Assembly (NCBI GenBank): GCA_022709905.1
Contig: JAKLHY010000073.1
Location: forward strand, 1-35,035
Length of the DNA: 35,035 nucleotides
Direction of reading: 5' to 3'
From: Verrucomicrobiota bacterium
GTDB lineage: Bacteria; Verrucomicrobiota; Verrucomicrobiia; Limisphaerales; UBA1319
Shown here piece after piece: positions 1,608 to 35,035 of this stretch. Position 1 is the stretch's first letter. Each line of letters begins with the position of its first letter. The notes under the pieces were generated by a model. That model had not been told where the DNA came from and did not search any database. It worked only from the letters and a program-made list of their open reading frames with translations. Position numbers and translations under genes: made by a program.

Positions 1608-3290
1608 CTACTGGGCGATGGGGGCCATCATGGTCCGGTTGAGCGTGAGCAACGATCGATTGTTGTTGATGGCGGTGGTTCTGAACTCCTGGAGTTTGGT
1701 GATCTCCTCCTCGGTAAGGAAGACGCGGGCGCGTTCGGCGGTTTTCTGGTAGATGGCATCCAGGAGTTTCAGGTTTCGTTCGGCGTCCGACTCGGAGGCG
1801 ATGTTGCGAAAGTTCAGGATCGGCACGGTCTGGTAATCGGCGGGTAACCCGGCATTCGCGAGGGCCGACTGGACTTCCTCTTGCAGGACCTGGCGGAACT
1901 GCGTGGCCTTTTCATCTTTAGCGGCATCGTTGCCGGCGAGCATGGGTTTGAATTGCTCCGCCGAGAGCCTGCTGAGCAAGGATTTCGTGTAATCCTGGTA
2001 TTGCCCCATTCCATCTTGTCCAAGCAGCGCCAGCGCCCGTTCCTGGAGGCTGGCGTCCTGGGCGACAAAGAGCTCGTTGATTTGTTCCGGGGTGAGTTTA
2101 TCGCGGAGCGCGACTGTAACATGGTCGACATTCTCCATGATATGATCGGCGAGCAGATCGTTGAGTTGATCGGACTGCTCGGCGGTCAGCTTCAGTTGGG
2201 TGGCGAGTCCCTTGTAGATGATGCCCATGCCCATTTTTTGCTGGGTGCGCAGCATCTTCCTGGCTTCCGGATTGGCGGTGACTTTGCTGATGGCGTTGCT
2301 GGACCCGATGCTGGCGTTCTCGTCGCGGAGCCTTCCGACTTCGCCTCGGAGTCGAAGGACTTCGTTGGGGTTCTTTCGGAGAGTCGCGTTCTCGGCGACG
2401 AGGGCGGCCAACCGGTTGGTCGCCTGGTCGCGCTCGCGCGTCAAGGCCTCGACCTGCGAGGCCAATGCCGAGTGTTTAGCCTGTTGTTCGCCGAGTGTAT
2501 TGACCTGGTCACGCAGGCTGGAAACCCGGATCGTCTGGTAAACTCCGAGGCCAATCGCGGCGGTTATTACGGCGGTCACAATCGTTTTTTGGATGGCAGT
2601 CATAGCTAGGGTTTGGGCAAGGGTTACAGCGGTGGAACCGGAAAGAGCGGCGGTGGACACCACCGCGCCCGAGGCGATGGCCGCGGCCAATCCCGCGGGG
2701 GCGGCCTGGATGGCGTTGGCGGAGAGTAGTGCGGCCAACCCGCCCGCTCCCACCGTCACATCGTGTTCGGCCAGGAAACCGCGAAGGCGCTCGACGGCGC
2801 GGTGAACGCGTTTCTGGGCGGCGTCCTCGCTTGCGCCCAGGGCCTCGCCGACCTCGCGCAAGGATTTGTTCTCGAAGAATCGGAGCAGGATCGCGGTGCG
2901 ATCGGCGTCGTCCAGCGACTGCATGGCCTCATCCAGCAGCGGTTCGATGCGCGACCAACCGGCCGATGTATCGTTTGCGTCACTCATCTGAAAGGCGATT
3001 TGCTCGCGGGCCTGCCGTCGGGACTCGCGGCGGACCACATCGATGGCGGCATGGCGGGTGACCTGGTAAAGCCAGGCGGTCAGAACGGTGTTCGGCTCTA
3101 GCTTGGCGGCATCGCGGGCAAGGCTGGCAAACACGGATTGCGCAACTTCCTCGGCCAGTTGGGGCAACTGCACCTGCCGCAAGGCGGCCGTGTAGACCAG
3201 GTCCAGGTGCCGCTTCACCAGCGCGGTAAACGCGTCCTGGGACTGGTCCCGCGTAAATTGCCCCAATAAATCAAGATCACTCGCGGTCAT
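1608..3290 (-). CDS. ECF (sigma-70 family) sigma factor fused to a C-terminal transmembrane helix, coiled-coil and ~230-aa extracytoplasmic-like domain
   Basis: The N-terminal ~180 aa have the ECF sigma2/sigma4 pattern (LVKRHLDLVYTAAL...; HTH ...SLREVGEALGASEDAAQKRVHRAVERLR). An Ala-rich linker and hydrophobic helix IVTAVITAAIGLGVY follow. A heptad-rich segment (QVEALTRERDQATNRLAALVAENATLRKN...) and a C-terminal globular region complete the protein. ATG at 3288-3290. Confidence 0.8.
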   Translation of the reverse strand: MTASDLDLLGQFTRDQSQDAFTALVKRHLDLVYTAALRQVQLPQLAEEVAQSVFASLARDAAKLEPNTVLTAWLYQVTRHAAIDVVRRESRRQAREQIAFQMSDANDTSAGWSRIEPLLDEAMQSLDDADRTAILLRFFENKSLREVGEALGASEDAAQKRVHRAVERLRGFLAEHDVTVGAGGLAALLSANAIQAAPAGLAAAIASGAVVSTAALSGSTAVTLAQTLAMTAIQKTIVTAVITAAIGLGVYQTIRVSSLRDQVNTLGEQQAKHSALASQVEALTRERDQATNRLAALVAENATLRKNPNEVLRLRGEVGRLRDENASIGSSNAISKVTANPEARKMLRTQQKMGMGIIYKGLATQLKLTAEQSDQLNDLLADHIMENVDHVTVALRDKLTPEQINELFVAQDASLQERALALLGQDGMGQYQDYTKSLLSRLSAEQFKPMLAGNDAAKDEKATQFRQVLQEEVQSALANAGLPADYQTVPILNFRNIASESDAERNLKLLDAIYQKTAERARVFLTEEEITKLQEFRTTAINNNRSLLTLNRTMMAPIAQ

Positions 3291-3624: not shown

Positions 3625-6600
3625 CTACTGCCTGAGCCGGAAGAATCGAACGCTGTCGTTCATGCTGACCTTTAAAACAATCCGGTCACCCATCTGGACG
3701 GTTCCGCCCATCCAATTTTCCCACTGCCGCAGGTCGGTCGAACTCTCGACCGCAAACCCCGACGCCGACACCGGCCAGGACAACACCAGATCGCCGGAGG
3801 CATCGACCTCGACCGTGATTCGCGGGGGGGATGACACGACCGGCTCGGTGCTCCAGGGCTCGAATTGGACGAGGTCGCTGACGCGGTTTCCCATCCCGTC
3901 CGAATTTTTGGCCGGGTGATATGGACCGGAGGCATCGCCCCACCAGTTGTGGCGCGCGTCAACCTCGGCAGGCCCCTCGTTCTGAATCCCCCAGATGCTG
4001 TTTGAAATGATCTGCGACCCGGTCACTGGCACGGGCAGACTCTGATTGCGAACCAGGATGCCGTTGTGATTGCCGGCAAACACACACCGGTCGATCTGGT
4101 GTTGGCCGGTGCTGTTATCGATCCGCAAGCCGTCGCCGTTATGATCGCGCACGCCCGTGTTCTTCAGCACCAGCGCGCCGGAGCCGGTCTTGAACAATCC
4201 CACCCCCCCCCAATAACCCCCATGGGCCACCTCGCACCACTCCAAGGTCGCCGAACCGGCGTTGACCACCTGGATCCCCTGCCACCATCCTGCCTGGCCC
4301 GTGGTCCCCTCAAACACAATCGGCGCCGACGCGGTCCCCACCGCTTTTAATTCTCCCTTCACCACGAGCGAAGGATATCGCACAAACCGAACCTTCACTC
4401 CGGGCTCGATCGTCAGCACGGCACCTTCCTCGACAATCATATCCGCCTGAACCACCATCACGAACTCGTCGCCCCCGCCTCGTTTCCAAGTCACATTAGT
4501 CGTCAAGGAACCGCCATTCACCTGCGCACTTCCCGAGGCATTGTCGTCAAACGCATTGGCCGTGTAGTCGAACACGCTGTTGATGTCGTGCAACACGCCC
4601 ATCTCCCCGTTCCCTTTGAACGAGCAGCCTGTGGCCATCACCTGGCTGGCATTGATATGCATCCCGGACTGGGTGTTGTTCGCATACATGGACGATTCCA
4701 AAACGGTGGTCCCCGGGCTGTTCACGACCTGCAAACCGTGTCCCAGCATATCGGTGACCGCGCAATGGCTCATCGTCAGATCCCCGGACCCGCTTTTCGC
4801 CATTCCCACTCGATCCCAATACCCCGCGTAACGGACCGTGCAATACGCCAACGCCGCCGATCCGGCACCTGAAATCTGCAGCGTCCGCCACCATCCCGGC
4901 CCGGGCTTCGTGCCACCCTCATCTCGGTTGGCATCGCCTCCCACGGTGTCGTCCCGCCAATCGGTCAGATACACCGGCTCGGCCGAGGTCCCCGGGACCT
5001 CGAGACGTCCGCTCACATAAAGCCCGGCATACTGGGCGAACTTGACGACAGTCCCCGCCCGAACCGTGAGCGATCCCTCTGGCGCCACCGACAAATCCTG
5101 CGATACGAAAAGAGAGTAGTCCGGCCTCAGCCCCCACACCGCCGGACCAGTCAAGATTCCTCCATCCAGATAGACGTCCATCGTGTTGCCACTGAAGGTC
5201 GAAGTCTTATCATCAAACGAAGCGTTCAAGCCCACTCGAACTCCGCGCGCATTGCCGGAGTAACGGTTGGTCTGCGAGATAAAGGAAGAATAACCAGCAC
5301 CCAATCGCAGGCCGTCCCCGCTATGATCTCGGAGGATCGAGTTCTTCAGCGTCAGGGCGCCGGAGCCGGTCTTGAGCAATCCCACGCCATCCCAGTATCC
5401 CCCGTGCGCCACCTCGCACCATTCCAGCGTCGCCGAACCGGCGTTGACCACCTGAATCCCCCGCCACCATCCGACCTCGCCTGTGGTCCCCTCGAACACA
5501 ATCGGCGCCAAGACCGTTCCGACGGCTTTCAATTCTCCCTTCACCGCCAACAGCGGATATCGCACAAATCGAACCTTCACTCCAGGCTCTACCGCTAACA
5601 CCGCTCCTTCCTCGACGATCAGATCTCCCTGAACGACCATCACGAACTCCTGGCCACCGCCCCGCTTCCATATCACGTTGTTCGTCATGGCCCCCCCGTT
5701 TACCAGCACGCTTGCCGCGGCATTGCCGGCAAACTGATTGGACTTATAGTCCAGTGAAATATTGGCTTCCTGCAAAACACCCCCCTCGCTGTTGCTGTTG
5801 AAGGCGCAGTTGGTCGCGATTACCAGGCTGGCGTTGACATACATCCCGGACCGGGTGTTGTTCGCATACGTGGACGATTCCAAAAGGGTGGTCCCCGGGC
5901 TGTTCACGACCTGCAAACCGTGTCCCAGCATATCGGTGACCGCGCAATGGCTCATCGTCAGATCCCCAGACCCGCTTTTCGCCATTCCCATTCCATCATA
6001 ATACCCGGCATAACGGACCGTGCAATACGTCAACACCGCCGATCCGGCACCTGAAATCTGCAGCGTCCGCCACCATCCCGGCCCGGGCTTCGTGCCACCC
6101 TCATCTCGGTTGGCATCGCCTCCCACGGTGTCGTCCCGCCAATCGGTCAGATACACCGGCTCGGCCGAGGTCCCCGGGACCTCGAGACGTCCGCTCACAT
6201 AAAGCCCGGCATACTGGGCGAACTTGACGACAGTCCCCGCCCGAACCGTGAGCGATCCCTCTGGCGCCACCGACAAATCCTGCGATACGAAAAGAGAGTA
6301 GTCCGGCCTCAGCCCCCACACCGCCGGACCAGTCAAGATTCCTCCATCCAGATAGACGTCCATCGTGTTGCCACTGAAGGTCGAAGTCTTATCATCAAAC
6401 GAAGCGTTCAAGCCCACTCGAACTCCGCGCGCATTGCCGGAGTAACGGTTGGTCTGCGAGATAAAGGAAGAATAACCAGCACCCAATCGCAGGCCGTCCC
6501 CGCTATGATCTCGGAGGATCGAGTTCTTCAGCGTCAGGGCGCCGGAGCCGGTCTTGAGCAATCCCACGCCATCCCAGTATCCCCCGTGCGCCACCTCGCA

Positions 6601-7041
6601 CCATTCCAGCATCGCCGAACCGGCGTTGACCACCTGAATCCCGTGCCACCAACCCGCATTACTGGTGGTTCCGTCAAACACAATCGGCGCCGAGGCCGTC
6701 CCCACCGCCCTCAATTGCCCGTGGATCCAGAGTCCCTGGTATTGGTTAAACTCAACCCTCACACCAGGCTCGATGGTCAACGTCACCCCTTCCGCAACAG
6801 TGACGGATCCTGTTACGCTGACGGGGCTGCTCGCAACAGACCATACAGTGTCGGAGGCAACAGTCCCCGAAACCTCGATGGCTTGTGTCTCGGGTGAACC
6901 GACCCAAAACAAAAACAGGAGCCAGGCCAGTCCGATCCGGCCACAGAACAGGGTCTCGTATCTATGATGGAATAGAATGGTGATCATGCGGTTACAACTT
7001 TCGAATGATAGCCAGTTCATCATGGGGCAATGACTTAGCAT
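3625..7041 (-). CDS. Large secreted right-handed parallel beta-helix repeat protein (three ~390-aa tandem repeat units plus a distinct ~75-aa C-terminal beta-rich domain)
   Basis: 1138-aa ORF. The N-terminus has a signal-peptide-like segment (…RIGLAWLLFLFWVGSPETQA|IEV). Pectate-lyase-like beta-helix repeats (NAGSA(T/M)LEWCEVAHGGYWDGVGLLKTGSGALTLKNS…, GNTMDVYLDGGILTG…) occur three times. Alternative ATG starts at M7/M8/M19 (6985-6987); the true start is uncertain. Confidence 0.8.
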   Translation of the reverse strand: MLSHCPMMNWLSFESCNRMITILFHHRYETLFCGRIGLAWLLFLFWVGSPETQAIEVSGTVASDTVWSVASSPVSVTGSVTVAEGVTLTIEPGVRVEFNQYQGLWIHGQLRAVGTASAPIVFDGTTSNAGWWHGIQVVNAGSAMLEWCEVAHGGYWDGVGLLKTGSGALTLKNSILRDHSGDGLRLGAGYSSFISQTNRYSGNARGVRVGLNASFDDKTSTFSGNTMDVYLDGGILTGPAVWGLRPDYSLFVSQDLSVAPEGSLTVRAGTVVKFAQYAGLYVSGRLEVPGTSAEPVYLTDWRDDTVGGDANRDEGGTKPGPGWWRTLQISGAGSAVLTYCTVRYAGYYDGMGMAKSGSGDLTMSHCAVTDMLGHGLQVVNSPGTTLLESSTYANNTRSGMYVNASLVIATNCAFNSNSEGGVLQEANISLDYKSNQFAGNAAASVLVNGGAMTNNVIWKRGGGQEFVMVVQGDLIVEEGAVLAVEPGVKVRFVRYPLLAVKGELKAVGTVLAPIVFEGTTGEVGWWRGIQVVNAGSATLEWCEVAHGGYWDGVGLLKTGSGALTLKNSILRDHSGDGLRLGAGYSSFISQTNRYSGNARGVRVGLNASFDDKTSTFSGNTMDVYLDGGILTGPAVWGLRPDYSLFVSQDLSVAPEGSLTVRAGTVVKFAQYAGLYVSGRLEVPGTSAEPVYLTDWRDDTVGGDANRDEGGTKPGPGWWRTLQISGAGSAALAYCTVRYAGYWDRVGMAKSGSGDLTMSHCAVTDMLGHGLQVVNSPGTTVLESSMYANNTQSGMHINASQVMATGCSFKGNGEMGVLHDINSVFDYTANAFDDNASGSAQVNGGSLTTNVTWKRGGGDEFVMVVQADMIVEEGAVLTIEPGVKVRFVRYPSLVVKGELKAVGTASAPIVFEGTTGQAGWWQGIQVVNAGSATLEWCEVAHGGYWGGVGLFKTGSGALVLKNTGVRDHNGDGLRIDNSTGQHQIDRCVFAGNHNGILVRNQSLPVPVTGSQIISNSIWGIQNEGPAEVDARHNWWGDASGPYHPAKNSDGMGNRVSDLVQFEPWSTEPVVSSPPRITVEVDASGDLVLSWPVSASGFAVESSTDLRQWENWMGGTVQMGDRIVLKVSMNDSVRFFRLRQ
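4690..6641. repeat. Intragenic tandem duplication: 4690-5459 and 5872-6641 are ~99% identical (period 1182 bp); a third, more diverged copy lies ~3900-4600
   Basis: Identical alternative-frame ORFs 4838..5020 = 6020..6202 and 4919..5137 = 6101..6319. Direct comparison of the nucleotide strings confirms the identity. The protein repeats 1 and 2 are identical over ~250 aa. Confidence 0.85.
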
Positions 7042-25128: not shown

Positions 25129-25809
25129 TCATTCTGCGGGCAACACCTCGGCCAGCATTTCCAGCTCGGTCAAAATCTGCCGGACCGCCTGCGGATCCTG
25201 GGCGGAATTGTGGCCCGTTTTCAAGGCCTTGAGAAGACCTTCGGCGCCCATCGCCGCCGCGCTTTCGGCCAAACCGGCCAGATCGATAGCCGGCAGGAGC
25301 TCGGCCGTGCCTTGCACGCTTTGCTGGATCAATCCATGTTGGCCTCGAACCAATTCGGAAAACTTGGCCACCATTCGAGCGCAGGCCTCTTGATCGACTC
25401 CGTATTTTTTCATCAGTTGATCCGAGGTCCAAAATAAGGATCGATCGGGGGGAAGAAGCTCGGCCACTTTCTGCAGCAAGGCGGCGCACTGGATCGGTTT
25501 GAGGAGATAGTGCCGGCAACCCAACTCGGCCGCTTGCCGGACGTGCCCGACATCCGAATGGCAGGTGCAGATCACAACGGGCACCACCGCCCACTTTGGA
25601 GTCTTCTTCATCCATTGGATGAGCTCAAAGCCTCCCATCCGGGGCATATTCAGGTCGGTGATGACCAACTGAATCTCCGGACGTTCATCCATGCACCAAA
25701 TGGCCTCTTCGCCGTTCCTGGCGAAGACGGTCTGGTACCTGTTGCGGTTGAGGTGAAAACCGATCAGCTCAGCGGATATTTCGTTGTCTTCAACAATTAG
25801 AACGCTCAT
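25129..25809 (-). CDS. Response regulator: CheY-like receiver domain plus a C-terminal ~100-aa helical (Hpt-like, apparently His-less) domain
   Basis: REC hallmarks present (VEDNE…, phospho-acceptor ITDLNMP, T in VVICT, K in YLLKP). The C-terminus …AGLAESAAAMGAEGLLKALK resembles the Hpt AHxLKGSxxxxGA signature, but the His position is Gly. The ATG at 25807-25809 is preceded by AAAGGA. Confidence 0.75.
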   Translation of the reverse strand: MSVLIVEDNEISAELIGFHLNRNRYQTVFARNGEEAIWCMDERPEIQLVITDLNMPRMGGFELIQWMKKTPKWAVVPVVICTCHSDVGHVRQAAELGCRHYLLKPIQCAALLQKVAELLPPDRSLFWTSDQLMKKYGVDQEACARMVAKFSELVRGQHGLIQQSVQGTAELLPAIDLAGLAESAAAMGAEGLLKALKTGHNSAQDPQAVRQILTELEMLAEVLPAE

Positions 25810-26393
25810 ATTTTGATCCTTTCCCGGGGTCTTTCCGAAGCCGGCAAACCATGCCAAGCCAAACAAGGATCAGCCCCCCCCCAGAGGTGGAAAGAGTCAA
25901 GCCTCTCATTATTCCATCTTAAAACTTTGCTATTCAATAAGTTGCTTATGATTTCTCCACCAAATCAGCACCCTCCCCTTTCTACAAGCGGGCTCTGCCA
26001 AAGGACTGCGGGAAACGATATCGCGTCATTGCCTTTCTATCGGCATCCGAGGGGTCTGGCTTAAGCAGAAACTCGAAAAACCATCCATCATGGACCGCTG
26101 GAAAACCTGGACATGAGGCAACCCTGGGGTCATCATCGACGCCCTAGAATCATCGGGCAGTGGTCCTACGACCCTAAGTGGATGTTTTGGAGGCGGCAGT
26201 CTCGATAAGGCCGGAAGAGGTTGTGGCGATCACGATTACAAAGGAAAGCTCGGTCTGTAGGAGCCAGGGCGTTACCGATCCTTGTATTAATAAACGCGAT
26301 AGCTAAGCCGACCACACGGGTATGTCCCCGTCGAAGGCTTGGCCTGGATGCCGTCGAGCATCGGATTTGGGCTTTAAAATGCGGGGGGATGGC

Positions 26394-27158
26394 ATGCAAG
26401 TTTTTGAGGAAATCTGGACCGCGTCGATGGCACTGTGGAATCTACCGTTCACAGTGATGCTGCTCGTCGTGTTGTTTTACTGGGGGTTCGTGCTCCTGGG
26501 GATTTTCGATCTGCATACGGGTGACGCCAGCCTCGAGGTCGAAACGGGAATGGACGGGGCAGCGGACGCGGATGTCTCCGCAGACGCTGATATCTCTTCG
26601 GACGCCAGCGTCGAGGGCGGGGCCGAAGCGCACGGACCGGGAGATGCCGACGTTCATGCGGATGGAATGGGGGCCGAGAGTGGCGGTTGGCTCCACAGCA
26701 CCGGGGATTTTCTCCATGTGGGAGCCATGCCGGTCATGGTGCCCCTCAGTTTGCTGACCCTTTGCTTGTGGACCCTGGGAGTCGTTTCCACCCATTACTT
26801 GAATCCGGCGGGGCACTGGGGACTGGCCCTGGCGCTCACGGGGGGAAATCTGGTTTTGAGTGCCGTGCTGACGCGGTATCTGGGATGGCCCTTGCGCTGG
26901 CTGTTTACCGCCCTCAACAAGGACTATGACAGCATCGGGCCCCTTGTCGGCCAGATTTGCCGGGTCACCACCGGAGAAGTCACCCCCAAGTTCGGCCAGG
27001 CCACCCTCGAAACCCGTGGATCTCCCCTCACCCTGAATGTTCGCACCACCGGCGATGAGGTGCTCCACCGAGGCGATGAGGCCCTGGTGATTCAACACGA
27101 CAAGAAAACGGACAGCTACCGAATCACGCGCTTTAAAAACCTAAAACTGGAGGAATAA
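26394..27158 (+). CDS. NfeD-like / YqiJ-family membrane protein (N-terminal TM helices, acidic Asp/Ala-rich linker, C-terminal OB-fold-like domain)
   Basis: TM helices then a D/A/S-rich low-complexity loop, two more TM helices and a ~90-aa C-terminal beta-rich domain (…VTTGEVTPKFGQATLETRGSPLTLNVRTTGDEVLHRGDEALVI…), as in the YqiJ partners of YqiK flotillins. The ATG at 26394 is preferred over the longer 26322 ORF. The stop lies 5 nt before the flotillin ATG. Confidence 0.6.
   Translation: MQVFEEIWTASMALWNLPFTVMLLVVLFYWGFVLLGIFDLHTGDASLEVETGMDGAADADVSADADISSDASVEGGAEAHGPGDADVHADGMGAESGGWLHSTGDFLHVGAMPVMVPLSLLTLCLWTLGVVSTHYLNPAGHWGLALALTGGNLVLSAVLTRYLGWPLRWLFTALNKDYDSIGPLVGQICRVTTGEVTPKFGQATLETRGSPLTLNVRTTGDEVLHRGDEALVIQHDKKTDSYRITRFKNLKLEE
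27149..27154 (+). promoter_or_regulatory. Shine-Dalgarno GGAGGA 8 nt upstream of the flotillin ATG (inside the yqiJ-like 3' end)
   Basis: Read directly (ctGGAGGAataaacttATG). Confidence 0.5.
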
Positions 27159-27162: not shown

Positions 27163-29232
27163 ATGCTCGCGGTATCGACTTTTGGAAATGTTCTCATCAC
27201 GTTCCTTGCCCTGATCGGGGCGGTGGTAGCGGCAGGAATCGCCGTGCTCGTGGTCCGTTGTTATCGCAAAGTGGAACAGGGCCAGGCCTTGGTGCGAACG
27301 GGCCAGGGCGGCACCAAAGTCGCTTTCTCCGGCATGCTGGTCTTCCCCGTCATCCACAAGGCCGAATACATCAACATCTCCGTCCACCGGATCGAGATCG
27401 ACCGGCGCGGGACCGCCGGACTGATCTGCAAGGACAACTTGCGGGCCGACATCACGGTGGCGTTTTTTGTCCGGATCAACAAGACCGAAAACGACGTCCT
27501 CAAAGTGGCCCAATCCATCGGCTGTCAGCGCGCCTCCAACCGCGAGGCCATTGTGGAGCTGTTCGACGCCAAGTTCTCCGAAGCCCTCAAGACCGTCGGC
27601 CGGCGCTTTGATTTTGTGGAGCTCTACAATTCCCGCGAGGAATTCCGGGATACCATCATCAAAATCATCGGCACCGATCTCAATGGTTTCGTTCTGGAGG
27701 ACGTCGCGATCGATTACCTCGAGCAAACCAGCCTCGATCATTTGAATCCAAATAACATCCTGGATGCCGAGGGCATCAAAAAGATCACCGACCTCACCGC
27801 GACCCAGGCCAAACTGGCCAACCAAATTACTCGGGAAAAGGAAAAGGTGATCACTCAGCAAAATGTCGAAACCCAGGAAAAAATCCTCGAGCTCAACCGG
27901 CAGCTCGCCGAGGCCACCGAAAAACAAAAACGCGAGGTGGCCACCATCAAGGCTCGGGAAGAAGCCGAGGCCCGCAAGGTCGAGTTCGAACAGAAACTCC
28001 GCTCCGAACAGGCCCGCATCTCGACCGAGGAGGAAGTCCTGGTGGCGGAAGAGAACAAGAATCGCCAGATCATCGTCGCCCGCAAAAACAAGGAACGCAC
28101 CGAAGCCGTCGAAATCGAGCGCGTGGAAAAAGACCGCCTGCTCGAAGCCAATGAACGCGAACGCGTGGTCTCTCTGGCCCAAATTGAAAAAACCAAGGCC
28201 GTCGAAATCGAACAAAAGAAAATCCAGGACGTCATCCGCGAGCGTGTCATGGTCGAGAAAACCGTCGTGCAGGAACGCGAGCGGATTAAGGATACCGAGG
28301 CCTTCGCCGCCGCGGACCGGCAGAAAAAGGTGATTGTTACCAAGGCCGAAATGGAGGCAGAAGAAGGCCTGGTCAAGGAAATCAAGTCCGCCGAAGCCCA
28401 CAAAAAGGCGATCGAATTAACCGCCGAAGCCGAAAAATTCCGCCTGGTCAAACAGGCGGAAGCCGCAAAATCCTCCGCCGAAATCCACGCCGAGGAAACC
28501 ATCATCAAGGCCCAGGCGGGTCTGAAATCCGCCGAACTCGACGCCACCGCCAAGAAAACCCTCGCCCAGGCCATCACAGCCGAAACGGCCGCCCCCGGAC
28601 TCGGCGAAGCCCAAGTCCAGGAGGCCAAGGCCCAGGCCCTCGAAAAACAAGGCACGACCGAGGCCAAAATCATGCAGCTCAAGTTCCAGTCCGAAGCCGA
28701 TGGCATCAAACAAAAGGCCGAATCCATGAAACTCCTCGACGGGGTCGGACGCGATCACGAGGAATTCAAACTGCGCCTCAACAAAGAACGCGACGTCGAG
28801 CTCGCCTCCATCCAGATTCAAAAGGACATCGCCTCCAGCCAGGCCCTCGTGGTCAGCGAGGCCCTGCGCCACTCCCGAATCGATATTGTCGGCGGCGACG
28901 CGGCCTTCTTCGACAAGATCGTGGGCGCCATCAGCGCGGGCAAAGCGGTGGACCGGCTCCTGGACAACAGCCAGGCGCTCTCGGATATCAAACAAACCCT
29001 GTTCAACGGCAATCCCGACCAGTTCCGTCAGCAATTGAAATCCTGGATCTCCCAGTTTGGTCTGACCACGGAAGATCTCAAGAACCTGACCCTGGCCGCC
29101 GCCCTGACTCGCATGATGACCCTGAACACCGAGCCGAAGACCAAAGGCCTTCTGAATCGCCTGCTCGAATGGGCGCAACAACAAGGATTACACAACCAAA
29201 AGGTCAGCCAGTTCCTCGAAACCCAATCCTGA
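27163..29232 (+). CDS. Flotillin-family (SPFH/band-7) protein, YqiK-like, with a long Glu/Ala/Lys-rich coiled-coil
   Basis: N-terminal TM helix, SPFH core (…QALVRTGQGGTKVAFSGMLVFPVIHKAEYINISVHRIEIDRRG…DNLRADITVAFFVRIN…), an extended EA-repeat coiled coil and a flotillin C-terminal region. 689 aa. Confidence 0.85.
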   Translation: MLAVSTFGNVLITFLALIGAVVAAGIAVLVVRCYRKVEQGQALVRTGQGGTKVAFSGMLVFPVIHKAEYINISVHRIEIDRRGTAGLICKDNLRADITVAFFVRINKTENDVLKVAQSIGCQRASNREAIVELFDAKFSEALKTVGRRFDFVELYNSREEFRDTIIKIIGTDLNGFVLEDVAIDYLEQTSLDHLNPNNILDAEGIKKITDLTATQAKLANQITREKEKVITQQNVETQEKILELNRQLAEATEKQKREVATIKAREEAEARKVEFEQKLRSEQARISTEEEVLVAEENKNRQIIVARKNKERTEAVEIERVEKDRLLEANERERVVSLAQIEKTKAVEIEQKKIQDVIRERVMVEKTVVQERERIKDTEAFAAADRQKKVIVTKAEMEAEEGLVKEIKSAEAHKKAIELTAEAEKFRLVKQAEAAKSSAEIHAEETIIKAQAGLKSAELDATAKKTLAQAITAETAAPGLGEAQVQEAKAQALEKQGTTEAKIMQLKFQSEADGIKQKAESMKLLDGVGRDHEEFKLRLNKERDVELASIQIQKDIASSQALVVSEALRHSRIDIVGGDAAFFDKIVGAISAGKAVDRLLDNSQALSDIKQTLFNGNPDQFRQQLKSWISQFGLTTEDLKNLTLAAALTRMMTLNTEPKTKGLLNRLLEWAQQQGLHNQKVSQFLETQS

Positions 29233-29295
29233 ATTCCCCCAGGCTCATGCGATTCCGGCCGGTCGCACCCCGACCGGATCCAGCCTGATCCCTGA

Positions 29296-32200
29296 ATGGC
29301 TACCGATCTCTCAACCCAGCCGCCCCAGCCCGATCCGGCGGGCGGCGCCTCCGCCGCTCCCGGCCCCGTGGTTCTCGATCAGGGAACCTATGAGGTCCTC
29401 CGTCAACGCCTGCAACGACGACAACAGGAACTCAAAGAAAAGCTCCAGCAGCTTAATGCCGCCCGCAAACAGGTTTTCGGCACTCTCGAGTCCACCCTGG
29501 TCGCCACCGAGCACATCACCACCCCCAACAATTGCACGGCCTCGGACCTGGTGGCGGTCGGAGCCAATCGGTTTTTGTTTGGCTTCAACGTGTTCATCGG
29601 GCTCAAATCGCAAACGACTGTTAGGGACGTGTTTGCGGCTTACGAAAAACGCGACCACACCTTTTCGCCGCTTCCCCTCGACCTGATCGCCCACCGCGAT
29701 TTCGAAACCGATTTCCGCGAATTATACCGCTATTACAAGAATCCCACCTTCGTCAAGTTCTCGATCCAAGGACCTCGTCTGTTCATGCTGTTTCGCGTGG
29801 GCCAAAACGAGACCGACATCAAGACCTTCCAATGGCTGATCCAGGCCGACCAACTCCTCTACCAGGGCCACCGCGGGGATCATGAACTCCGAACGCCCCC
29901 CCAGCATGAGTTCGAGTGGAAACGAACCCACCGCGACTTTCACCGCGGCGGGAAATACCCCCACATCTCCATCGAGGATCGCGTCTTCGTCGAAACCATC
30001 GGCGGCGATCTGACGGTGAAAGTGGAGGACAACACGGAAACCGGCACCGGCATCTACTCCGAAACCGTCGAACACCGCGACCAAACCCTGGACGACGCCG
30101 AGGTGTTCTACAGCATCCTCGGACACCTGGTTCTCCTCAAAATCCGCCCCTACCAGGAGGATCGCTTTCGTTATCTGGTCTTCAACGGAAAACTCCAGCA
30201 GGTCCAGCGCATCGATGCCATCGAAGACGCCTGTGTGCTGCTTCCCCACGATCAAGGCATCATTTTTTCCAACGGATATTACCTCCAACTCGGCGAGTTC
30301 AAGCAGTTTCCCACCGGTCTGGCCCACATGGTCTTTGAACAACGGCTGGCCGCGCCCAACGGAGAGGATCACCTGTTTGTTTTCTACAACCGCCGGGAGG
30401 GCTTATACGTCTTGATGTCTTACAACATCATCACCCAAAAAATCGAGTCCCCCATCCTCTGCAACGGATACTGCCTTTTTCCGAATGGTGAAATGGCGCT
30501 GTTCCGCGCCGGCCACGAACCTCAAAAACACCACGCCCTGCAAATCTGGCACACTCCCTATCTGCACCCCGATTTCACCCTGGCCGCAACGCAAAAGAAG
30601 GACGATTTCCTCTTCAAACTCGGCAATGCCACCCTCGTCAATTGCATGTCCGAATGCCATGAACTCCTCGCCTTGCTCGAAAAAGAGGATTCCTACGGCG
30701 ATCTCTACGTCGACGTCGTCAAGGCCAGCTCCGAGGTGATGGACACTTACTTCTGGCTGGACCGTTCCGAGGCCTTCCACTTGCGCGCCACCCTCGAGGC
30801 GATCCGCGAGACCGCAACAGCCGCAATTGCCGAATTTGAAAAAGTCCGCAGGCTCAAACGCCAGGCCCAATCCGAATTCAACCGGATCGCGCAACAAGCC
30901 CGGGACCAACTGGAAACCGCGGCTCACGGACCCTTCAGCCATATCGATGACTATGTGCGCTGCCTCGGCCGTTTGCGCGGGCTCCGCGGTGAACTGGTCG
31001 GGCTTAAGGATGTCCGTTACATCGACATCGCCGGCGTGGAACAGCTGGAATCCGAAATCACCAGCCGCCAGGAGGTCCTTTCCCGCCAGTGCGTCGAGTT
31101 CCTCCTGGGCGACGAGGCCCTGGCCCCCTTCCAAGCCCGCGTCCGCCAGCACGAGGCCCGTCTCGCCGGCCTGGACAAAGTGGCTCTCGTCCGCCAGGAA
31201 GAACAGGCCGTCCAGCAAACCGCCGGCGAACTCGAGATGCTGATTGAGACCGTCAGCAATCTCAAGATCGATGATCCCACTCAGACCACCCGGATCATCG
31301 ATGGTATTTCGTCGGTCTACGCCCTCCTGAATCAGGTCCGCCACGCCCTCAAACGCCGGCGCCAGGAACTCCAAACCGTGGAGGGCGCCGCCCAGTTCAC
31401 CGCCCAGTTGCGCCTGGTCGAACAAAGCGTGGCCAATTACCTCGAAATCTGCGACACCCCCGAGCGATGCGAGGAATACCTCAACAAAGTCATGGTCCAG
31501 GTCGAGGAACTCGAGGGCCAATGCGCCGATCTCGAAGACTTTCTTCTCAAACTGGCTGAAAAACGGGAGGAGATCTACTCGGCGTTCGAGAGCCGGAAAC
31601 TCGCTCTGGTGGAGTCTCGAGGCCGCCGGGCCCAGGCGCTCATGGCCGCCGCCGACCGCATCTTCCAGGGTCTCCATCACCGCGTATCGCGATTTGAATC
31701 CGTCGCCGAAATCCACGGCTATTTTGCGTCCGACCTCATGGTCGACCGAGTTCGCGCCCTGGTGCGGCAACTGGCCGAGCTGAACGAAAACGTCAAGGCC
31801 GACGATCTCCAAACCCGCCTGAAGACCCTGCGCGAAGAGGCGGTGCGCCAGTTGAAGGATCGCCAGGAACTCTTTGTGCGCGGCCAGCCGATCATCCAAC
31901 TCGGCAAACACCGCTTCACGGTCAATACCCAGAAACTCGAGCTCACGGTCGTCCCGCGAGACCCGGATCTCTGTTTTCATCTCACCAGCACGGCGTTTTT
32001 CGAGACCATCACCGATCCCGAGCTCCTTTCCACCCGCCCGGTTTGGACCCAGGAACTCGTCTCGGAAACCCGAGATCTCTACCGGGCCGAATACCTGGCC
32101 TACCAGGCCCTCCGAGCTCTGGAAACCGCAACGGCCGAACCGACCGCTCCGCAAGCAGCCGCATGGTCCGACGCCGAATGTTTGGCCTTTGTCCAGCAGT

Positions 32201-34509
32201 TTCAATCCGGACGATATGCCGAAGGCTATGTCAAAGGTTTGCACGACCAGGATGCCGCGCGCATCTTGCGATGCCTCCTGAGCATGCGGCTGACCGCCGG
32301 AATGCTTCGCTATTCTCCCGCCTCGCGCGCTTGTGCCACCGTGTTTTGGCATTGCCAGAAACCTCAACTGCCGCTCCTGGCCGCTCATCTGAAGGGTCTC
32401 CGTGTCCGCCGGGAATTGTTTCCCCAACCATCCGCGCACCCCCCCTGCATCCAGGAACTCCAACAACACCTGGATGAGTTCATCCGCCAAACCGGGCTGT
32501 TCGATCCCACTGTCTCCCAGGAGGCCGCGGAATACCTGTTCTACGAACTCACCAGCCGCACACAATTCGTCATAAGCCGCGAAGCCACCCGGCTTTACCG
32601 GTCTCTTCAGGAACATCTGGCCCAAACCCATTCCTCGAACCGTTTGGAGGACTTGCTCCAGGCCGTCGCCACAGATCCCCTCAAAGCGATGCAACTCCTC
32701 CGGGATTGGATCACGGGATTCCTGCAAATCCAGGAGATGCCCGGATCCGAGGCTTTCATCGATGAAACCGCATCCCTGCTGCTTCGCCGCGGATTTGATC
32801 CCGGCGCGGTGGCCGACGCCAGCTTCCAGGCCACCTTGACCGGCATGGCCGGAACCCACCCCCTACTCGTCAACCAGAACTACGAGCTCAATTACCACGC
32901 GTTCCTTGCCCGTCTCCAACGCCACGAACGTGAAATCGTTCCCCTGTTCCGCCACTGGCAGGAACGCAAGGCGATCCTGCTCGAGAAAAAACGCCAAGCC
33001 CTCCGGCTCGAATCCTTCGAGCCGCGTGTCCTGAGCTCTTTTGTCCGCAACCGGTTGATCGATCGCGTCTACCTGCCGCTGATCGGCGACAACCTGGCCA
33101 AACAAATCGGCGTCGCCGGCGAGGAAACCCGCACCGATCGCATGGGACTGCTGCTTCTAGTCTCCCCGCCGGGCTACGGCAAGACCACCCTCATGGAATA
33201 CGTCGCCAGCCGCCTCGGCCTGACTTTCATCAAGATCAACGGCCCCGCCCTGGGCGCCCAGGTCACAGCCTTCGATCCCGCCGAAGTCCGCCAAGCCACG
33301 GCCCGCGAAGAACTCCGCCGCCTGAATCTGGCTTTCGAAATGGGCGATAACCTCATGATCTATGTCGATGACATCCAGCATTGTCATCCGGAGTTCCTTC
33401 AAAAGTTCATCTCGCTCTGCGACGCCCAACGCCGCGTCGAAGGAGTCTATGAAGGCCAGGCCCGCACCTACGACCTTCGGGGCCGCAAAATCGCCGTCGT
33501 CATGGCCGGCAATCCCTACACGGAAAGCGGCGAGAAATTCAAAGTCCCCGACATGCTGACCAACCGGGCCGATACCTACAACCTCGGCGATATCATCGCC
33601 GACGCGGAGGATGCCTTCAAAGAGAGTTACCTCGAAAACGCCCTGACCTCCAACCCCGTCCTCAACCGCCTCGCCAGCCGCAGCCAAAAGGATGCCCAGG
33701 CCGTGATCCAACTCGCGGGCGGTTCCCCCCGCGATGCGGTCGATTTCGAGGGCGCCTACTCCGTTCTGGAGCTCAACGACTTCGTCGCCGTCATGCGGAA
33801 GTTGATCCGCATCCGCGATGTCGTCCTGCGGATCAACCAGGAATACATTCGGTCCGCCGCCCAGACCGAGGCCTACCGCACCGAGCCCCCTTTCAAGCTC
33901 CAAGGATCGTATCGCAACATGAACCGCCTGGCCGAACGCGTCCTGCCAGTCATGAACGACGATGAGATCCAAGCCCTGATTCTGGATCACTACCAGAACG
34001 AAGCTCAAACTCTCGCCAGCGGGGCGGAAGCCAATCTTCTCAAATTTAAGGAAATCCTGGGGCTCCTGTCCCCCGCCGAAACCGAGCGGTGGAAAGAAAT
34101 CCAACGCACGTTCCAACGCAACCTGTTGTTCCACGAGGCCGGCGCACACGATCCTGTCGGCCGCATCGTCGCCCAATTGGCCGCCTTTTCCGAAGGCCTC
34201 GAATCCATCCGCTCCGCCCTGGCCAAACGCCCCCAGCCCGATCACCCCCCCGCCCATCCGGAGTTCCATGCGCCAACGATCCCGCAGTTGGACAAGCTGG
34301 CTCTGGAACTTGAGTCCCTCCGAAACACCATCTCGTCAGCCCTCCAGAAACAGACGCAACAACCTCTGTTCCGCCTCCAGGATCCCTCCCGCAAGGCCGA
34401 TTACGAAATCACCCAGGTCACCCAGGATACCCTCCGGAAAATCTGGGCGGTCATCGAAGAAGATCGGTCAGCGTCCCAAACGCCCCCCCCGGCTCCGCCC
34501 CGCGAATAG
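29296..34509 (+). CDS. Giant (1737 aa) multidomain protein: N-terminal ~470-aa beta-rich domain, ~800-aa coiled-coil region, and a single C-terminal MoxR/AAA_5-type AAA+ ATPase module
   Basis: Uninterrupted 5.2-kb ORF with a codon-usage-consistent composition. Walker A LLLLVSPPGYGKTTL (nt ~33160-33190). Walker B/AAA_5-like NLMIYVDDIQHCHPEFLQKFISL (nt ~33350-33420). Sensor-1 region RKIAVVMAGNPY and Arg-finger-like DMLTNRADTY. The middle region is heptad-rich (EAIRETATAAIAEFEKVRRLKRQAQSEF… through …LKTLREEAVRQLKDRQEL). The Pro-rich C-terminus contains a C8 tract. Confidence 0.8.
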   Translation: MATDLSTQPPQPDPAGGASAAPGPVVLDQGTYEVLRQRLQRRQQELKEKLQQLNAARKQVFGTLESTLVATEHITTPNNCTASDLVAVGANRFLFGFNVFIGLKSQTTVRDVFAAYEKRDHTFSPLPLDLIAHRDFETDFRELYRYYKNPTFVKFSIQGPRLFMLFRVGQNETDIKTFQWLIQADQLLYQGHRGDHELRTPPQHEFEWKRTHRDFHRGGKYPHISIEDRVFVETIGGDLTVKVEDNTETGTGIYSETVEHRDQTLDDAEVFYSILGHLVLLKIRPYQEDRFRYLVFNGKLQQVQRIDAIEDACVLLPHDQGIIFSNGYYLQLGEFKQFPTGLAHMVFEQRLAAPNGEDHLFVFYNRREGLYVLMSYNIITQKIESPILCNGYCLFPNGEMALFRAGHEPQKHHALQIWHTPYLHPDFTLAATQKKDDFLFKLGNATLVNCMSECHELLALLEKEDSYGDLYVDVVKASSEVMDTYFWLDRSEAFHLRATLEAIRETATAAIAEFEKVRRLKRQAQSEFNRIAQQARDQLETAAHGPFSHIDDYVRCLGRLRGLRGELVGLKDVRYIDIAGVEQLESEITSRQEVLSRQCVEFLLGDEALAPFQARVRQHEARLAGLDKVALVRQEEQAVQQTAGELEMLIETVSNLKIDDPTQTTRIIDGISSVYALLNQVRHALKRRRQELQTVEGAAQFTAQLRLVEQSVANYLEICDTPERCEEYLNKVMVQVEELEGQCADLEDFLLKLAEKREEIYSAFESRKLALVESRGRRAQALMAAADRIFQGLHHRVSRFESVAEIHGYFASDLMVDRVRALVRQLAELNENVKADDLQTRLKTLREEAVRQLKDRQELFVRGQPIIQLGKHRFTVNTQKLELTVVPRDPDLCFHLTSTAFFETITDPELLSTRPVWTQELVSETRDLYRAEYLAYQALRALETATAEPTAPQAAAWSDAECLAFVQQFQSGRYAEGYVKGLHDQDAARILRCLLSMRLTAGMLRYSPASRACATVFWHCQKPQLPLLAAHLKGLRVRRELFPQPSAHPPCIQELQQHLDEFIRQTGLFDPTVSQEAAEYLFYELTSRTQFVISREATRLYRSLQEHLAQTHSSNRLEDLLQAVATDPLKAMQLLRDWITGFLQIQEMPGSEAFIDETASLLLRRGFDPGAVADASFQATLTGMAGTHPLLVNQNYELNYHAFLARLQRHEREIVPLFRHWQERKAILLEKKRQALRLESFEPRVLSSFVRNRLIDRVYLPLIGDNLAKQIGVAGEETRTDRMGLLLLVSPPGYGKTTLMEYVASRLGLTFIKINGPALGAQVTAFDPAEVRQATAREELRRLNLAFEMGDNLMIYVDDIQHCHPEFLQKFISLCDAQRRVEGVYEGQARTYDLRGRKIAVVMAGNPYTESGEKFKVPDMLTNRADTYNLGDIIADAEDAFKESYLENALTSNPVLNRLASRSQKDAQAVIQLAGGSPRDAVDFEGAYSVLELNDFVAVMRKLIRIRDVVLRINQEYIRSAAQTEAYRTEPPFKLQGSYRNMNRLAERVLPVMNDDEIQALILDHYQNEAQTLASGAEANLLKFKEILGLLSPAETERWKEIQRTFQRNLLFHEAGAHDPVGRIVAQLAAFSEGLESIRSALAKRPQPDHPPAHPEFHAPTIPQLDKLALELESLRNTISSALQKQTQQPLFRLQDPSRKADYEITQVTQDTLRKIWAVIEEDRSASQTPPPAPPRE

Positions 34510-34523
34510 GGGGAGGCTTTTTT
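34492..34523 (+). terminator. Putative intrinsic terminator: imperfect GC-rich hairpin overlapping the stop codon followed by TTTTTT
   Basis: …GGCTCCGCCCCGCGAATAGGGGGAGGCTTTTTTAA; the arms CCGCCCC / GGGG(G)AGG pair with bulges; a T6 run follows at 34518-34523. Confidence 0.4.
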
Positions 34524-35017: not shown

Positions 35018-35035
35018 TGTGCTGTAGATTTTCAG

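What the first reader, a model, noticed from the sequence alone, without database searches (positions are those of the whole stretch)
29296..34509. Unusual domain order in the giant protein: beta-rich N-domain, ~800 aa of coiled coil, then a single AAA_5-like ATPase module near the C-terminus
The only P-loop in 1737 aa is SPPGYGKTT at about residue 1290. It is followed by a Walker B/helix-2 insert pattern (IYVDDIQHCHPEFLQKFISLCD) and Arg-rich sensor elements (MLTNRADTY) characteristic of the MoxR/dynein/McrB-related AAA_5 clade. Those proteins are normally short stand-alone ATPases or come in tandem arrays, not a single module at the end of a long coiled coil. The N-terminal 470 aa show repeated short hydrophobic beta-strand motifs (FVKFSIQG…LFMLFRVG…FRYLVFNG…LFVFYNRREGLYVLMSYN…NGYCLFPNGEMALF), suggesting a propeller or beta-sandwich sensor or adaptor. 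A lone AAA+ module implies function as a homo-oligomer (probably a hexamer) with coiled-coil stalks, reminiscent of dynein stalk logic.
Basis: seen in the sequence. Interest (0 to 1): 0.75.

Follow-up and report, generated by a model that had tools for sequence, protein, structure and literature searches.

The report
Giant flotillin-operon AAA+ ATPase (DUF3686 family)
The 1737-residue protein is an ordinary member of a widespread, already catalogued but never experimentally studied family of giant bacterial ATPases, encoded next to a flotillin-like membrane scaffold and its small partner and probably acting in membrane maintenance with the stress protein PspA.

Summary
The ORF (29296..34509, +, 1737 aa) is real.

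The "unusual domain order" is not unusual for this protein. It is the fixed architecture of a large family: Pfam DUF3686 (E=1.6e-175), DUF7902, then one C-terminal AAA+ module. Relatives occur in at least 520 species genomes from many phyla. NCBI names them "DNA repair ATPase".

The "~800 aa coiled coil" is overstated. The model shows about 430 aa of broken, spectrin-like helices, then a small beta unit and a globular helical domain.

The AAA+ call holds. Pfam AAA_5 and AAA both pass their cut-offs. The closest folds are ClpB-NBD2/Skd3 and the MoxR proteins NorQ/CbbQ. No ABC/SMC fold and no second NTPase were found.

The gene is the last of a conserved three-gene cassette: a YqiJ/NfeD-like membrane protein, a flotillin-like SPFH protein, then the giant ATPase (68 of 69 informative loci). 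PspA lies nearby in several lineages.

This operon and the architecture "Betapropeller+Coiled-coil+AAA-ATPase" were already described computationally (PMC11237479). I found no experimental work.

Most likely role: a cytoplasmic, oligomeric AAA+ remodeller of flotillin/PspA sub-membrane assemblies. This rests on gene linkage and is inferred, not shown.

The parts
26322..27158 (+). First gene of the cassette: small membrane protein of the YqiJ/YuaF (NfeD2) type, 278 aa. It has TM-like segments at residues 33-66 and 130-157, with an acidic D/A/S-rich loop between them.
   Evidence: It is homologous to the gene at the same position in other loci (E=2e-16). 9 of 23 orthologues hit Pfam YqiJ_N (best 3.6e-8), 1 hits YqiJ_OB and 1 hits NfeD. 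The family profile matches YuaF 2k14 only weakly (E=0.46). Hydropathy. The window protein itself has no Pfam hit.
27163..29232 (+). Second gene: flotillin-like SPFH/Band-7 protein, 689 aa, with an N-terminal membrane anchor (residues 1-35) and a long E/A/K-rich helical region.
   Evidence: It is 56-64% identical to the gene at the same position in Symmachiella and Verrucomicrobiota genomes, and 30% identical (E=2e-72) in the most distant locus. 4 of 28 orthologues hit Pfam Band_7 (best 8.8e-15). Band_7 is precomputed for L084 and L086. RefSeq names orthologues 'SPFH domain-containing protein' and 'flotillin family protein'. The family profile matches QmcA 8z5g at E=0.0014. The window protein itself shows only a weak FloT hit (E=0.019).
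29296..34509 (+). Third gene: giant soluble DUF3686-DUF7902-AAA+ ATPase, 1737 aa. This is the finding.
   Evidence: ORF. Pfam. More than 2782 homologues with the same architecture. No transmembrane segment.
29386..29478 (+). N-terminal helix (residues 31-61) with a heptad-like pattern, preceding the beta domain.
   Evidence: Helix H31-61 in the model. Heptad score is above the shuffled 99th percentile at 33-66.
29494..30552 (+). All-beta domain (residues 67-419), the core of Pfam DUF3686 (45-486). It has about 27 strands and is consistent with, but not verified as, a seven-bladed beta-propeller.
30607..31875 (+). Helical rod region (residues 438-860): 11 helices of 10-58 residues, spectrin-repeat-like. 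It includes Pfam DUF7902 (residues 607-691, nt 31114-31368).
31891..33015 (+). Small beta unit (866-904), a globular all-alpha domain (about 931-1165), a beta-hairpin (1178-1199) and a long helix (1200-1236). None has a recognisable relative.
33016..33585 (+). Highly conserved pre-AAA helix (1241-1285) and the AAA+ alpha/beta core (1286-1430). Motifs: Walker A G1293-T1298 (K1296), Walker B D1358-D1359 (DD, not DE), a pre-sensor-1 beta-hairpin at 1380-1393, sensor 1 N1406, and putative arginine finger R1424.
   Evidence: Pfam AAA_5 and AAA. Invariant columns. Motif counts in 185 family members. Strand order in the model. Fold matches. It is the most conserved region (78-81% identity).
33586..34224 (+). 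Enlarged helical lid and C-terminal helical region (1431-1643), holding the invariant QGSYRN motif (1536-1541). I read R1540 as the putative sensor 2.
   Evidence: About 110 residues separate strand beta5 from the sensor-2-like motif.
34225..34506 (+). Poorly conserved, mostly low-confidence tail (1644-1737) ending in a predicted helix (about 1710-1727).
   Evidence: 13% identity. pLDDT <50 in parts.

Best explanation
Identity (about 0.95 confidence). The ORF is a typical member of the DUF3686/DUF7902/AAA+ family that NCBI names 'DNA repair ATPase'. It is the third gene of a conserved cassette: a YqiJ/NfeD-like membrane protein, a flotillin-like SPFH protein, then the giant ATPase.

Mechanism (inferred, about 0.5).
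- The two membrane proteins build a flotillin-type scaffold on the cytoplasmic face of the inner membrane, as other SPFH/NfeD pairs do.
- The giant protein is soluble. It oligomerises through its single C-terminal AAA+ module, probably into a ring that uses the invariant arginine finger R1424 between subunits.
- Each subunit carries a long helical arm of spectrin-like bundles, tipped by the conserved beta domain.
- The beta domains and arms bind the flotillin scaffold and/or PspA polymers.
- Nucleotide binding and hydrolysis in the ring then drive assembly, remodelling or disassembly of these sub-membrane assemblies during membrane maintenance or envelope stress.

Two sequence features argue for a slow, remodeller- or switch-type ATPase rather than a fast threading unfoldase. 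The Walker B is an invariant Asp-Asp instead of Asp-Glu, and no aromatic pore-loop residue is conserved after strand beta2.

Shown: the architecture, intact and strongly conserved ATPase motifs, the absence of transmembrane segments, and the gene linkage. Inferred: oligomeric state, binding partners, direction of remodelling and physiological role.
For: Family membership:
- Pfam DUF3686 E=1.6e-175 over the full profile, DUF7902 E=3e-25, and AAA_5/AAA above their cut-offs.
- More than 2782 homologues, mostly about 1670-1900 aa with the same domains. 683 clusters at 50% identity.
- At least 520 species genomes in Bacteroidota, Planctomycetota, Verrucomicrobiota, Firmicutes and Fibrobacterota, and also Proteobacteria, Actinobacteria and Deinococcus.

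Linkage:
- The flotillin-like gene lies upstream on the same strand in 68 of 69 loci with at least 2.6 kb of upstream DNA.
- The cassette is kept even in members only 30-34% identical in the N-domain.

PspA link, in four different gene arrangements:
- CesT-PspA upstream on the same strand in 24 of 82 loci, all labelled Bacteroidota or a Bacteroidota subgroup in their record titles.
- Divergent in Verrucomicrobiota locus L001.
- Convergent downstream in L084.
- At the head of the operon on Pseudomonas plasmid pQBR103.

ATPase:
- The motifs SPPGYGKTT, DDIQH, MAGNP, NRA and QGSYRN are present in 169-182 of 185 family members.
- The giant protein has no TM segment, whereas both partners do.

Published comparative genomics reaches the same contextual reading (PMC11237479).
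Against: - No experiment on any family member was found, so the role rests on guilt by association.
- The window itself has no PspA gene.
- I could not inspect the relative arrangement of arms and ring. The pTM values are 0.56-0.57 and I had no access to coordinates.
- The oligomeric state was not modelled.
- A Walker B of DD may mean very low ATPase activity.
- The beta domain was not confirmed as a propeller and has no identified ligand.
Confidence: 0.55

Rival explanations
1. It is an AAA+ quality-control machine for client membrane proteins held in flotillin microdomains, working like FtsH inside the HflK/C cage. Its substrates would be membrane proteins, not the scaffold or PspA.
For: The pairing of an SPFH scaffold with an AAA+ enzyme parallels HflK/C-FtsH, which is established knowledge and is cited. 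The closest folds include the Lon and ClpA/ClpB unfoldase modules.
Against: There is no protease domain and no protease gene in the cassette. The protein has no TM anchor. No aromatic pore-loop residue is conserved after strand beta2: the family consensus there is GPAIGHxVTSLDP. The Walker B is DD.
Confidence: 0.15
2. It is a nucleotide-dependent switch or scaffold rather than a motor. ATP binding, with little hydrolysis, would control assembly of a large sub-membrane lattice built from the helical arms and beta domains.
For: Asp-Asp replaces the usual Asp-Glu in Walker B in 181 of 185 members. The spectrin-like helical repeats are typical of structural lattices.
Against: Sensor 1, the arginine finger and the sensor-2-like arginine are all invariant. 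That conservation is expected if hydrolysis matters.
Confidence: 0.12
3. It is part of an anti-phage or other conflict system. A membrane sensor (flotillin/NfeD) would be coupled to an ATPase effector that aborts infection.
For: - Weak PADLOC matches: LmuB over the helical region (E=1.4e-6), mad8 and IetA over the P-loop.
- The cassette occurs on some megaplasmids.
- Bacteroidota loci carry a LexA/CI-like HTH-S24 regulator.
- TerD and TelA stress genes lie nearby in some loci.
Against: - The PADLOC hits cover only generic coiled-coil or P-loop segments.
- No nuclease, toxin or other effector domain was found.
- The window neighbourhood is housekeeping: PGK, TIM, NAD kinase.
- No phage copies were found.
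- The three-gene unit is uniform across phyla and has no variable effector modules.
Confidence: 0.08
4. It is what its database name says: a DNA-repair ATPase of the SMC/RecN/Rad50 kind.
For: The Pfam and NCBI names. A weak RuvB_N match over the P-loop, E=8.6e-5 and below the cut-off. A LexA-like regulator in Bacteroidota operons.
Against: - No ABC/SMC head was found. All fold matches are AAA+.
- No DNA-binding domain was detected.
- The RuvB match covers only about 50 residues around the P-loop.
- The obligate neighbours are membrane proteins.
- The name most likely comes from coiled-coil similarity (my inference).
Confidence: 0.04

Closest known systems
DUF3686-containing 'DNA repair ATPase' family (Pfam PF12458 + PF25472 + AAA), described as 'Betapropeller+Coiled-coil+AAA-ATPase' in PspA/Band-7/YqiJ operons (PMC11237479)
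   Same: Everything tested matches: full-length domain matches, protein length, the motif set, and operon partners.
   Different: Nothing material. The window shows the 'abbreviated' three-gene form without an adjacent CesT-PspA pair, which the paper also mentions. The nearest sequence on record is 97% identical (P0001). The next nearest are 59% or less.
MoxR-type AAA+ ATPases NorQ and CbbQ (Pfam AAA_5)
   Different: MoxR proteins are about 250-350 aa stand-alone ATPases that work with a VWA-domain partner. Here there is a 1285-residue N-terminal extension and no VWA gene. The model shows no helix-2 beta-hairpin insert. Sequence identity is only 13-15%. ClpB-NBD2/Skd3 score equally well.
HCLR-clade modules: ClpB/Skd3 NBD2, ClpA D2, Lon
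   Different: There is no conserved aromatic pore loop. The Walker B is DD instead of DE. The protein has a single module rather than a tandem pair, and no ClpP-binding loop or protease domain was identified.
YqiJ-YqiK (E. coli) and YuaF-FloT (B. subtilis): NfeD2-SPFH2 operons
   Same: The two upstream genes are of this type and in the same order.
   Different: Per the published descriptions (my recollection), those model operons have no third gene for a giant ATPase. The flotillin-like partner here is so divergent that Pfam Band_7 misses the window protein itself.
Vps4 with ESCRT-III, and FtsH with HflK/C
   Same: The functional logic is similar: an AAA+ enzyme genetically or physically coupled to a membrane-shaping polymer (PspA belongs to the ESCRT-III superfamily) or to an SPFH cage.

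Membership tests
DUF3686/DUF7902/AAA+ 'DNA repair ATPase' family | N-terminal DUF3686 domain matched over the whole profile | tested here: met
   PF12458 E=1.6e-175, profile positions 1-448 of 448, residues 45-486.
DUF3686/DUF7902/AAA+ 'DNA repair ATPase' family | DUF7902 in the helical middle region | tested here: met
   PF25472 E=3e-25, profile positions 1-85 of 85, residues 607-691.
DUF3686/DUF7902/AAA+ 'DNA repair ATPase' family | A single C-terminal AAA+ module with the family motif set (SPPGYGKTT, DDIQH, MAGNP, NRAD, QGSYRN) in a protein of about 1600-1900 aa | tested here: met
   All motifs are present in the window protein. They occur in 169-182 of 185 family members. One P-loop per protein in 181 of 185.
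DUF3686/DUF7902/AAA+ 'DNA repair ATPase' family | Encoded directly downstream of a flotillin-like SPFH gene and a YqiJ/NfeD-like gene | tested here: met
   In the window the genes are at 26322..27158, 27163..29232 and 29296..34509, all on the + strand. The arrangement holds in 68 of 69 informative loci.
AAA+ superfamily | Walker A, Walker B, sensor 1, arginine finger, and a helical lid with sensor 2, on a beta5-1-4-3-2-type core | tested here: met
AAA+ superfamily | ATP hydrolysis and ring oligomerisation | not testable with these tools
   This needs purified protein, or at least a multimer prediction, which was not available.
MoxR / AAA_5 clade | Pfam AAA_5 match above the gathering score | tested here: met
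   32.9 bits against 22. All 33 orthologues match, best 8.1e-9. However, PF00004 also passes (30.9 against 21.2) and scores better than AAA_5 in the seven most distant members.
MoxR / AAA_5 clade | Beta-hairpin insert in helix 2 | tested here: not met
   In the model the stretch between strand beta2 (1310-1315) and helix 1334-1349 is a loop with a short helix and no strands, at pLDDT 82-91. This rests on a predicted structure only.
MoxR / AAA_5 clade | Pre-sensor-1 beta-hairpin | tested here: met
   Strands 1380-1385 and 1388-1393 lie just before the sensor-1 strand 1399-1403. The HCLR clade shares this feature, so it does not discriminate.
MoxR / AAA_5 clade | Pre-sensor-2 insert that repositions the lid | tested here: inconclusive
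   About 110 residues of extra helices lie between beta5 and the QGSYRN motif. I could not inspect coordinates to see where the lid sits.
MoxR / AAA_5 clade | Works with a VWA-domain partner encoded nearby | tested here: not met
   No VWA gene is in the cassette in the window or recurrent in 88 related loci. The only vWA hit is a Ro60 gene in an unrelated downstream operon in L001.
SMC/RecN/ABC-type DNA repair ATPases | ABC-type head (Walker A at the N-terminus, signature motif and Walker B at the C-terminus) split by an antiparallel coiled coil | tested here: not met
   Walker A and Walker B are 60 residues apart in one C-terminal AAA+ domain. No ABC/SMC hit appeared in Pfam, NCBIfam, PDB sequence or fold searches. 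The only related hit is PADLOC LmuB over helical residues 496-889.
Beta-propeller (N-domain) | Closed ring of four-stranded antiparallel blades | tested here: inconclusive
SPFH/flotillin (upstream partner) | Band_7/SPFH domain after an N-terminal membrane anchor, followed by a long helical region | tested here: met
   Met through orthologues: Band_7 in 4 of 28 (8.8e-15) and precomputed in L084 and L086. TM at residues 1-35. The window protein itself is below threshold.
NfeD2/YqiJ (upstream partner) | YqiJ_N membrane domain plus a C-terminal OB-fold | tested here: met
   Met through orthologues: YqiJ_N in 9 of 23 (3.6e-8), and YqiJ_OB and NfeD in one each. The OB-fold itself is only weakly supported (YuaF E=0.46).

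The most novel reading that the evidence does not exclude
The giant ATPase is the missing ATP-driven remodeller of bacterial flotillin cages and/or PspA (ESCRT-III-superfamily) polymers. It would be a bacterial functional counterpart of Vps4, built on a different AAA+ clade, with six long spectrin-like arms and beta-domain 'hands' that grip the scaffold.
Probability: 0.3. Interest if true: 0.7.

Novelty: new member of a known kind. Interest (0 to 1): 0.35.

Why it matters
The finding is not a discovery. The architecture is in Pfam, NCBI names the family, and the operon has been described in print.

Its value is as a pointer to a large, conserved and experimentally untouched system. What bacterial flotillins actually do is, to my knowledge, still unclear. 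How PspA-type polymers are assembled and taken apart without a dedicated ATPase is an open question, raised explicitly in PMC11237479.

A giant AAA+ protein that is almost always encoded with a flotillin/NfeD pair, and repeatedly with PspA, is a concrete candidate for the energy-consuming part of that machinery. It occurs in hosts for which, to my knowledge, genetic tools exist: Pseudomonas fluorescens plasmid pQBR103, Proteus, Vibrio and Streptomyces.

The database name 'DNA repair ATPase' is probably misleading and worth flagging.

Tried and rejected
- **Second or cryptic NTPase domain.** Regex and profile searches find a single P-loop.
- **ABC/SMC identity.** No support in Pfam, NCBIfam, PDB sequence or fold searches.
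- **Sequence-profile assignment of the AAA+ clade.** A family profile of residues 1240-1650 matches PDB sequences only over about 40 residues around the P-loop (p97/VCP about 5e-6, RuvB about 4e-4). It says nothing about the clade.
- **N-domain fold.**
  - hhalign between putative blades found no repeats.
  - The profile search against PDB sequences gave no N-domain hit.
  - Lenient Pfam scans gave one marginal propeller hit in 33 members.
- **A home-made heptad score.** It flags only 33-66 and parts of 490-766. It failed on my intended positive control, the flotillin helical region, so I use it only as weak support.
- **A conserved fourth gene between the flotillin gene and the ATPase gene.** The ORFs in the 0.7-2.4 kb gaps of some Bacteroidota loci are unrelated to one another.
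- **Promoter and terminator scan of 25500-35035.** Counts equal the shuffled expectation, so nothing is usable.
- **Literature.** Searches for DUF3686, PF12458, and 'DNA repair ATPase' combined with flotillin, SPFH or PspA found nothing relevant.
- **Defence-system reading.** PADLOC hits are generic, phage copies are absent, and the neighbourhood is housekeeping.
Full report
**1. The observation**

The ORF at 29296..34509 (+) is real and encodes 1737 aa.
- The only GK[ST] in the protein is in SPPGYGKTT at residues 1290-1298.
- IYVDD (Walker B) is at 1355-1359 and MLTNRADTY starts at 1420.

What does not hold is the description of residues 470-1280 as about 800 aa of coiled coil, and the labels given to two motifs (section 3).

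**2. What family it is**

Pfam gives three matches:
- a full-length match to DUF3686 ('ATPase involved in DNA repair'; E=1.6e-175; residues 45-486);
- a full match to DUF7902 (E=3e-25; residues 607-691);
- above-threshold matches to both AAA_5 (32.9 bits) and AAA/PF00004 (30.9 bits) at 1286-1411.

A search of the protein collection returns more than 2782 homologues. The 120 listed are 1672-1895 aa, carry the same Pfam domains and cover 93-100% of the query. Sources name them 'DNA repair ATPase', 'MoxR-like ATPase' or 'hypothetical protein'.

An exhaustive HMMER search with the N-domain alone finds 683 clusters at 50% identity. In complete members (about 1550-2040 aa) the domain starts within about 50 residues of the N-terminus, with one exception at 147. 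Across 185 full-length relatives there is one P-loop per protein in 181, at median position 1286 of median length 1783.

The 'unusual domain order' is therefore the invariant architecture of a large, catalogued family. A scan of species-representative genomes finds at least 520 genomes with a relative. They span Bacteroidota, Planctomycetota, Verrucomicrobiota, Firmicutes and Fibrobacterota. A plasmid search adds Pseudomonas, Proteus, Vibrio, Photobacterium, Halomonas, Streptomyces, Nonomuraea and Deinococcus. No phage carries it.

**3. Anatomy from structure prediction**

I made two AlphaFold2 models from a 57-sequence alignment: residues 1-1000 (pLDDT 82.4) and 900-1737 (pLDDT 82.1). In order, they show:
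- a disordered start (1-28);
- a helix (31-61);
- an all-beta domain of about 27 strands (67-419);
- eleven helices of 10-58 residues separated by loops (438-860);
- a small beta unit (866-904);
- a globular domain of short helices (about 931-1165, pLDDT >90);
- a beta-hairpin (1178-1199) and two long helices;
- the AAA+ core (1286-1430);
- an enlarged helical lid and C-terminal region (to about 1643);
- a poorly conserved tail.

*The beta domain.* It has the right number of strands for a seven-bladed propeller, but I could not confirm the fold.
- There are no internal repeats.
- It has no PDB sequence relative.
- Only one marginal Pfam propeller hit was found among 33 members.

**4. The ATPase module**

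The functional labels are my assignment by motif position. These motifs persist in members only 30-34% identical in the N-domain.

The model shows no hairpin in helix 2, but it does show a hairpin just before sensor 1 (1380-1393).

Fold searches give only AAA+ proteins:
- Foldseek: NorQ, CbbQ, dynein, ClpB-NBD2, RuvB and MCM (E about 1e-3).

The module therefore belongs to the part of the AAA+ superfamily that carries the pre-sensor-1 hairpin, close to both MoxR and HCLR modules, and is divergent from both. 'AAA_5-like' is a fair but not exclusive label:
- all 33 orthologues match AAA_5 over nearly its whole profile, while PF00004 matches only its first half;
- in the seven most distant members PF00004 scores better;
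- the helix-2 insert and the VWA partner typical of MoxR proteins are absent.

Two features are worth noting. The Walker B is Asp-Asp, not Asp-Glu, in 181 of 185 members. The loop after strand beta2 has no conserved aromatic residue; its consensus is GPAIGHxVTSLDP. I read both as pointing to a slow remodeller or switch rather than a threading unfoldase. This is an inference.

**5.

Two genes lie immediately upstream on the same strand.

*26322..27158 (278 aa).* It has TM-like segments. Its orthologues hit Pfam YqiJ_N (9 of 23), YqiJ_OB and NfeD.

*27163..29232 (689 aa).* It has an N-terminal anchor and a long helical region.
- It is 56-64% identical to the gene at the same position in distant genomes.
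- Its orthologues hit Band_7.
- RefSeq names orthologues 'SPFH domain-containing' or 'flotillin family' protein.

Across 82 related loci, the flotillin-like gene lies upstream on the same strand in 68 of the 69 loci that have enough upstream DNA. The one clear exception among these is L078. L068, with only 1.9 kb of upstream DNA, also lacks it. The cassette is kept in the most divergent members found.

Clustering all flanking ORFs shows further recurrent neighbours in loci labelled Bacteroidota or a Bacteroidota subgroup:
- PspA/IM30 in 24 loci;
- a CesT/YbjN-like protein in 19 loci;
- a divergent HTH plus S24-peptidase regulator in 21 loci.

PspA also lies next to the cassette in three other arrangements: divergent in a Verrucomicrobiota genome, convergent in L084, and at the head of a longer operon on Pseudomonas plasmid pQBR103. 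The window itself has no PspA. Its neighbourhood is housekeeping: PGK, TIM, NAD kinase, PilT-like ATPases and an ABC-type solute-binding protein (SBP_bac_5).

**6. Comparison with the literature**

The comparative-genomics study of the Psp system (PMC11237479) describes an operon that combines CesT/Tir-PspA with three further genes:
[quoted passage not shown] - a YqiJ/YuaF-type 3TM protein.

The paper notes that abbreviated operons without PspA are more widespread. Its supplement writes the architecture as 'Betapropeller+Coiled-coil+AAA-ATPase' for Dokdonia. The window carries exactly that abbreviated form.

The NfeD2-SPFH2 pairing itself has been known since 2009 (PMC2636767). I found no experimental study of the giant ATPase.

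**7. How it most likely works**

*Shown:*
- a soluble giant protein with an intact, strongly conserved AAA+ site (78-81% identity, the most conserved region);
- a conserved N-terminal beta domain and a helical rod;
- near-obligate linkage to a membrane flotillin/NfeD pair;
- repeated, independent linkage to PspA.

*Inferred:* the AAA+ modules form a ring, using R1424 between subunits. The helical arms and beta domains reach the flotillin scaffold and/or PspA polymers on the inner face of the membrane. The nucleotide cycle then assembles, remodels or dismantles those assemblies during membrane maintenance or stress.

*Rivals, in order of likelihood:* a quality-control machine for client membrane proteins, a nucleotide switch or lattice, a defence system, and a literal DNA-repair ATPase. 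The last has essentially only the database name in its favour.

**8. Verdict**

The claim of unusualness does not survive: this is a new member of a known, published and experimentally uncharacterised family.

Interest is moderate to low for the finding as stated. The family itself is a good experimental target.

Noticed in passing
window 26322..27158, residues about 75-125 of the small partner: An acidic D/A/S-rich loop lies between the two TM-like segments. The family consensus there is a DxDxxDxDxxxDxDxDxDxD-like pattern, which might bind cations.
   Followed up: no
L005, L013, L014 and 18 other loci labelled Bacteroidota or a Bacteroidota subgroup, e.g. L013:1910-2728 (-): A divergent HTH_3 + Peptidase_S24 (LexA/CI-like) gene sits upstream of the CesT-PspA-YqiJ-flotillin-ATPase genes. 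This suggests self-cleavage-controlled induction of the operon.
   Followed up: partly
L001:3151-5750 (-) and L001:16444-23389: In Verrucomicrobiota bacterium sgz303538 the cassette has a divergent PspA plus a 559-aa classical AAA ATPase on one side. On the other side lies an RtcR-Ro60(TROVE/vWA)-RtcB-RtcA RNA-repair operon.
   Followed up: partly
L087 (Pseudomonas fluorescens SBW25 plasmid pQBR103, record 85112-97641): One long same-strand gene array joins the polyamine-type PspA neighbourhood to the flotillin/ATPase cassette. Its genes are PspA, rhomboid protease, DUF2491, DUF350, DUF1190, glutathionylspermidine synthase, a hypothetical protein, an SPFH protein and 'DNA repair ATPase'.
   Followed up: no
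L083:13001-14221 and L088:15131-15664: Tellurite-resistance-type stress genes lie near the cassette in two divergent loci: TelA directly downstream in L083, and TerD nearby in a Streptomyces plasmid.
   Followed up: no
window 25129..25866 (-): A response-regulator receiver protein is encoded divergently from the cassette, about 450 bp upstream of its first gene. No link to the cassette was tested.
   Followed up: no
window 30403..32859 (-) and 33157..34269 (-): Long antisense ORFs of 818 and 370 aa lie inside the giant gene. They are most likely shadow ORFs of a GC-rich coding region. I found no evidence that they are genes.
   Followed up: no
window 34225..34506, residues 1644-1737 of the giant protein: The tail is poorly conserved (13% identity) and mostly low-confidence. 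It ends in a predicted helix (about 1710-1727, YEITQVTQDTLRKIWAVIEE) that overlaps a weakly conserved QF..M..W pattern in the family consensus. It may be a partner-binding or membrane-binding helix.
   Followed up: no
window 1608..3290 (-) and 3625..7041 (-): A 560-aa protein with an ECF-type sigma-70 domain only in its first 170 residues lies next to a 1138-aa right-handed beta-helix/NosD-like protein. Both are unrelated to the finding.
   Followed up: no
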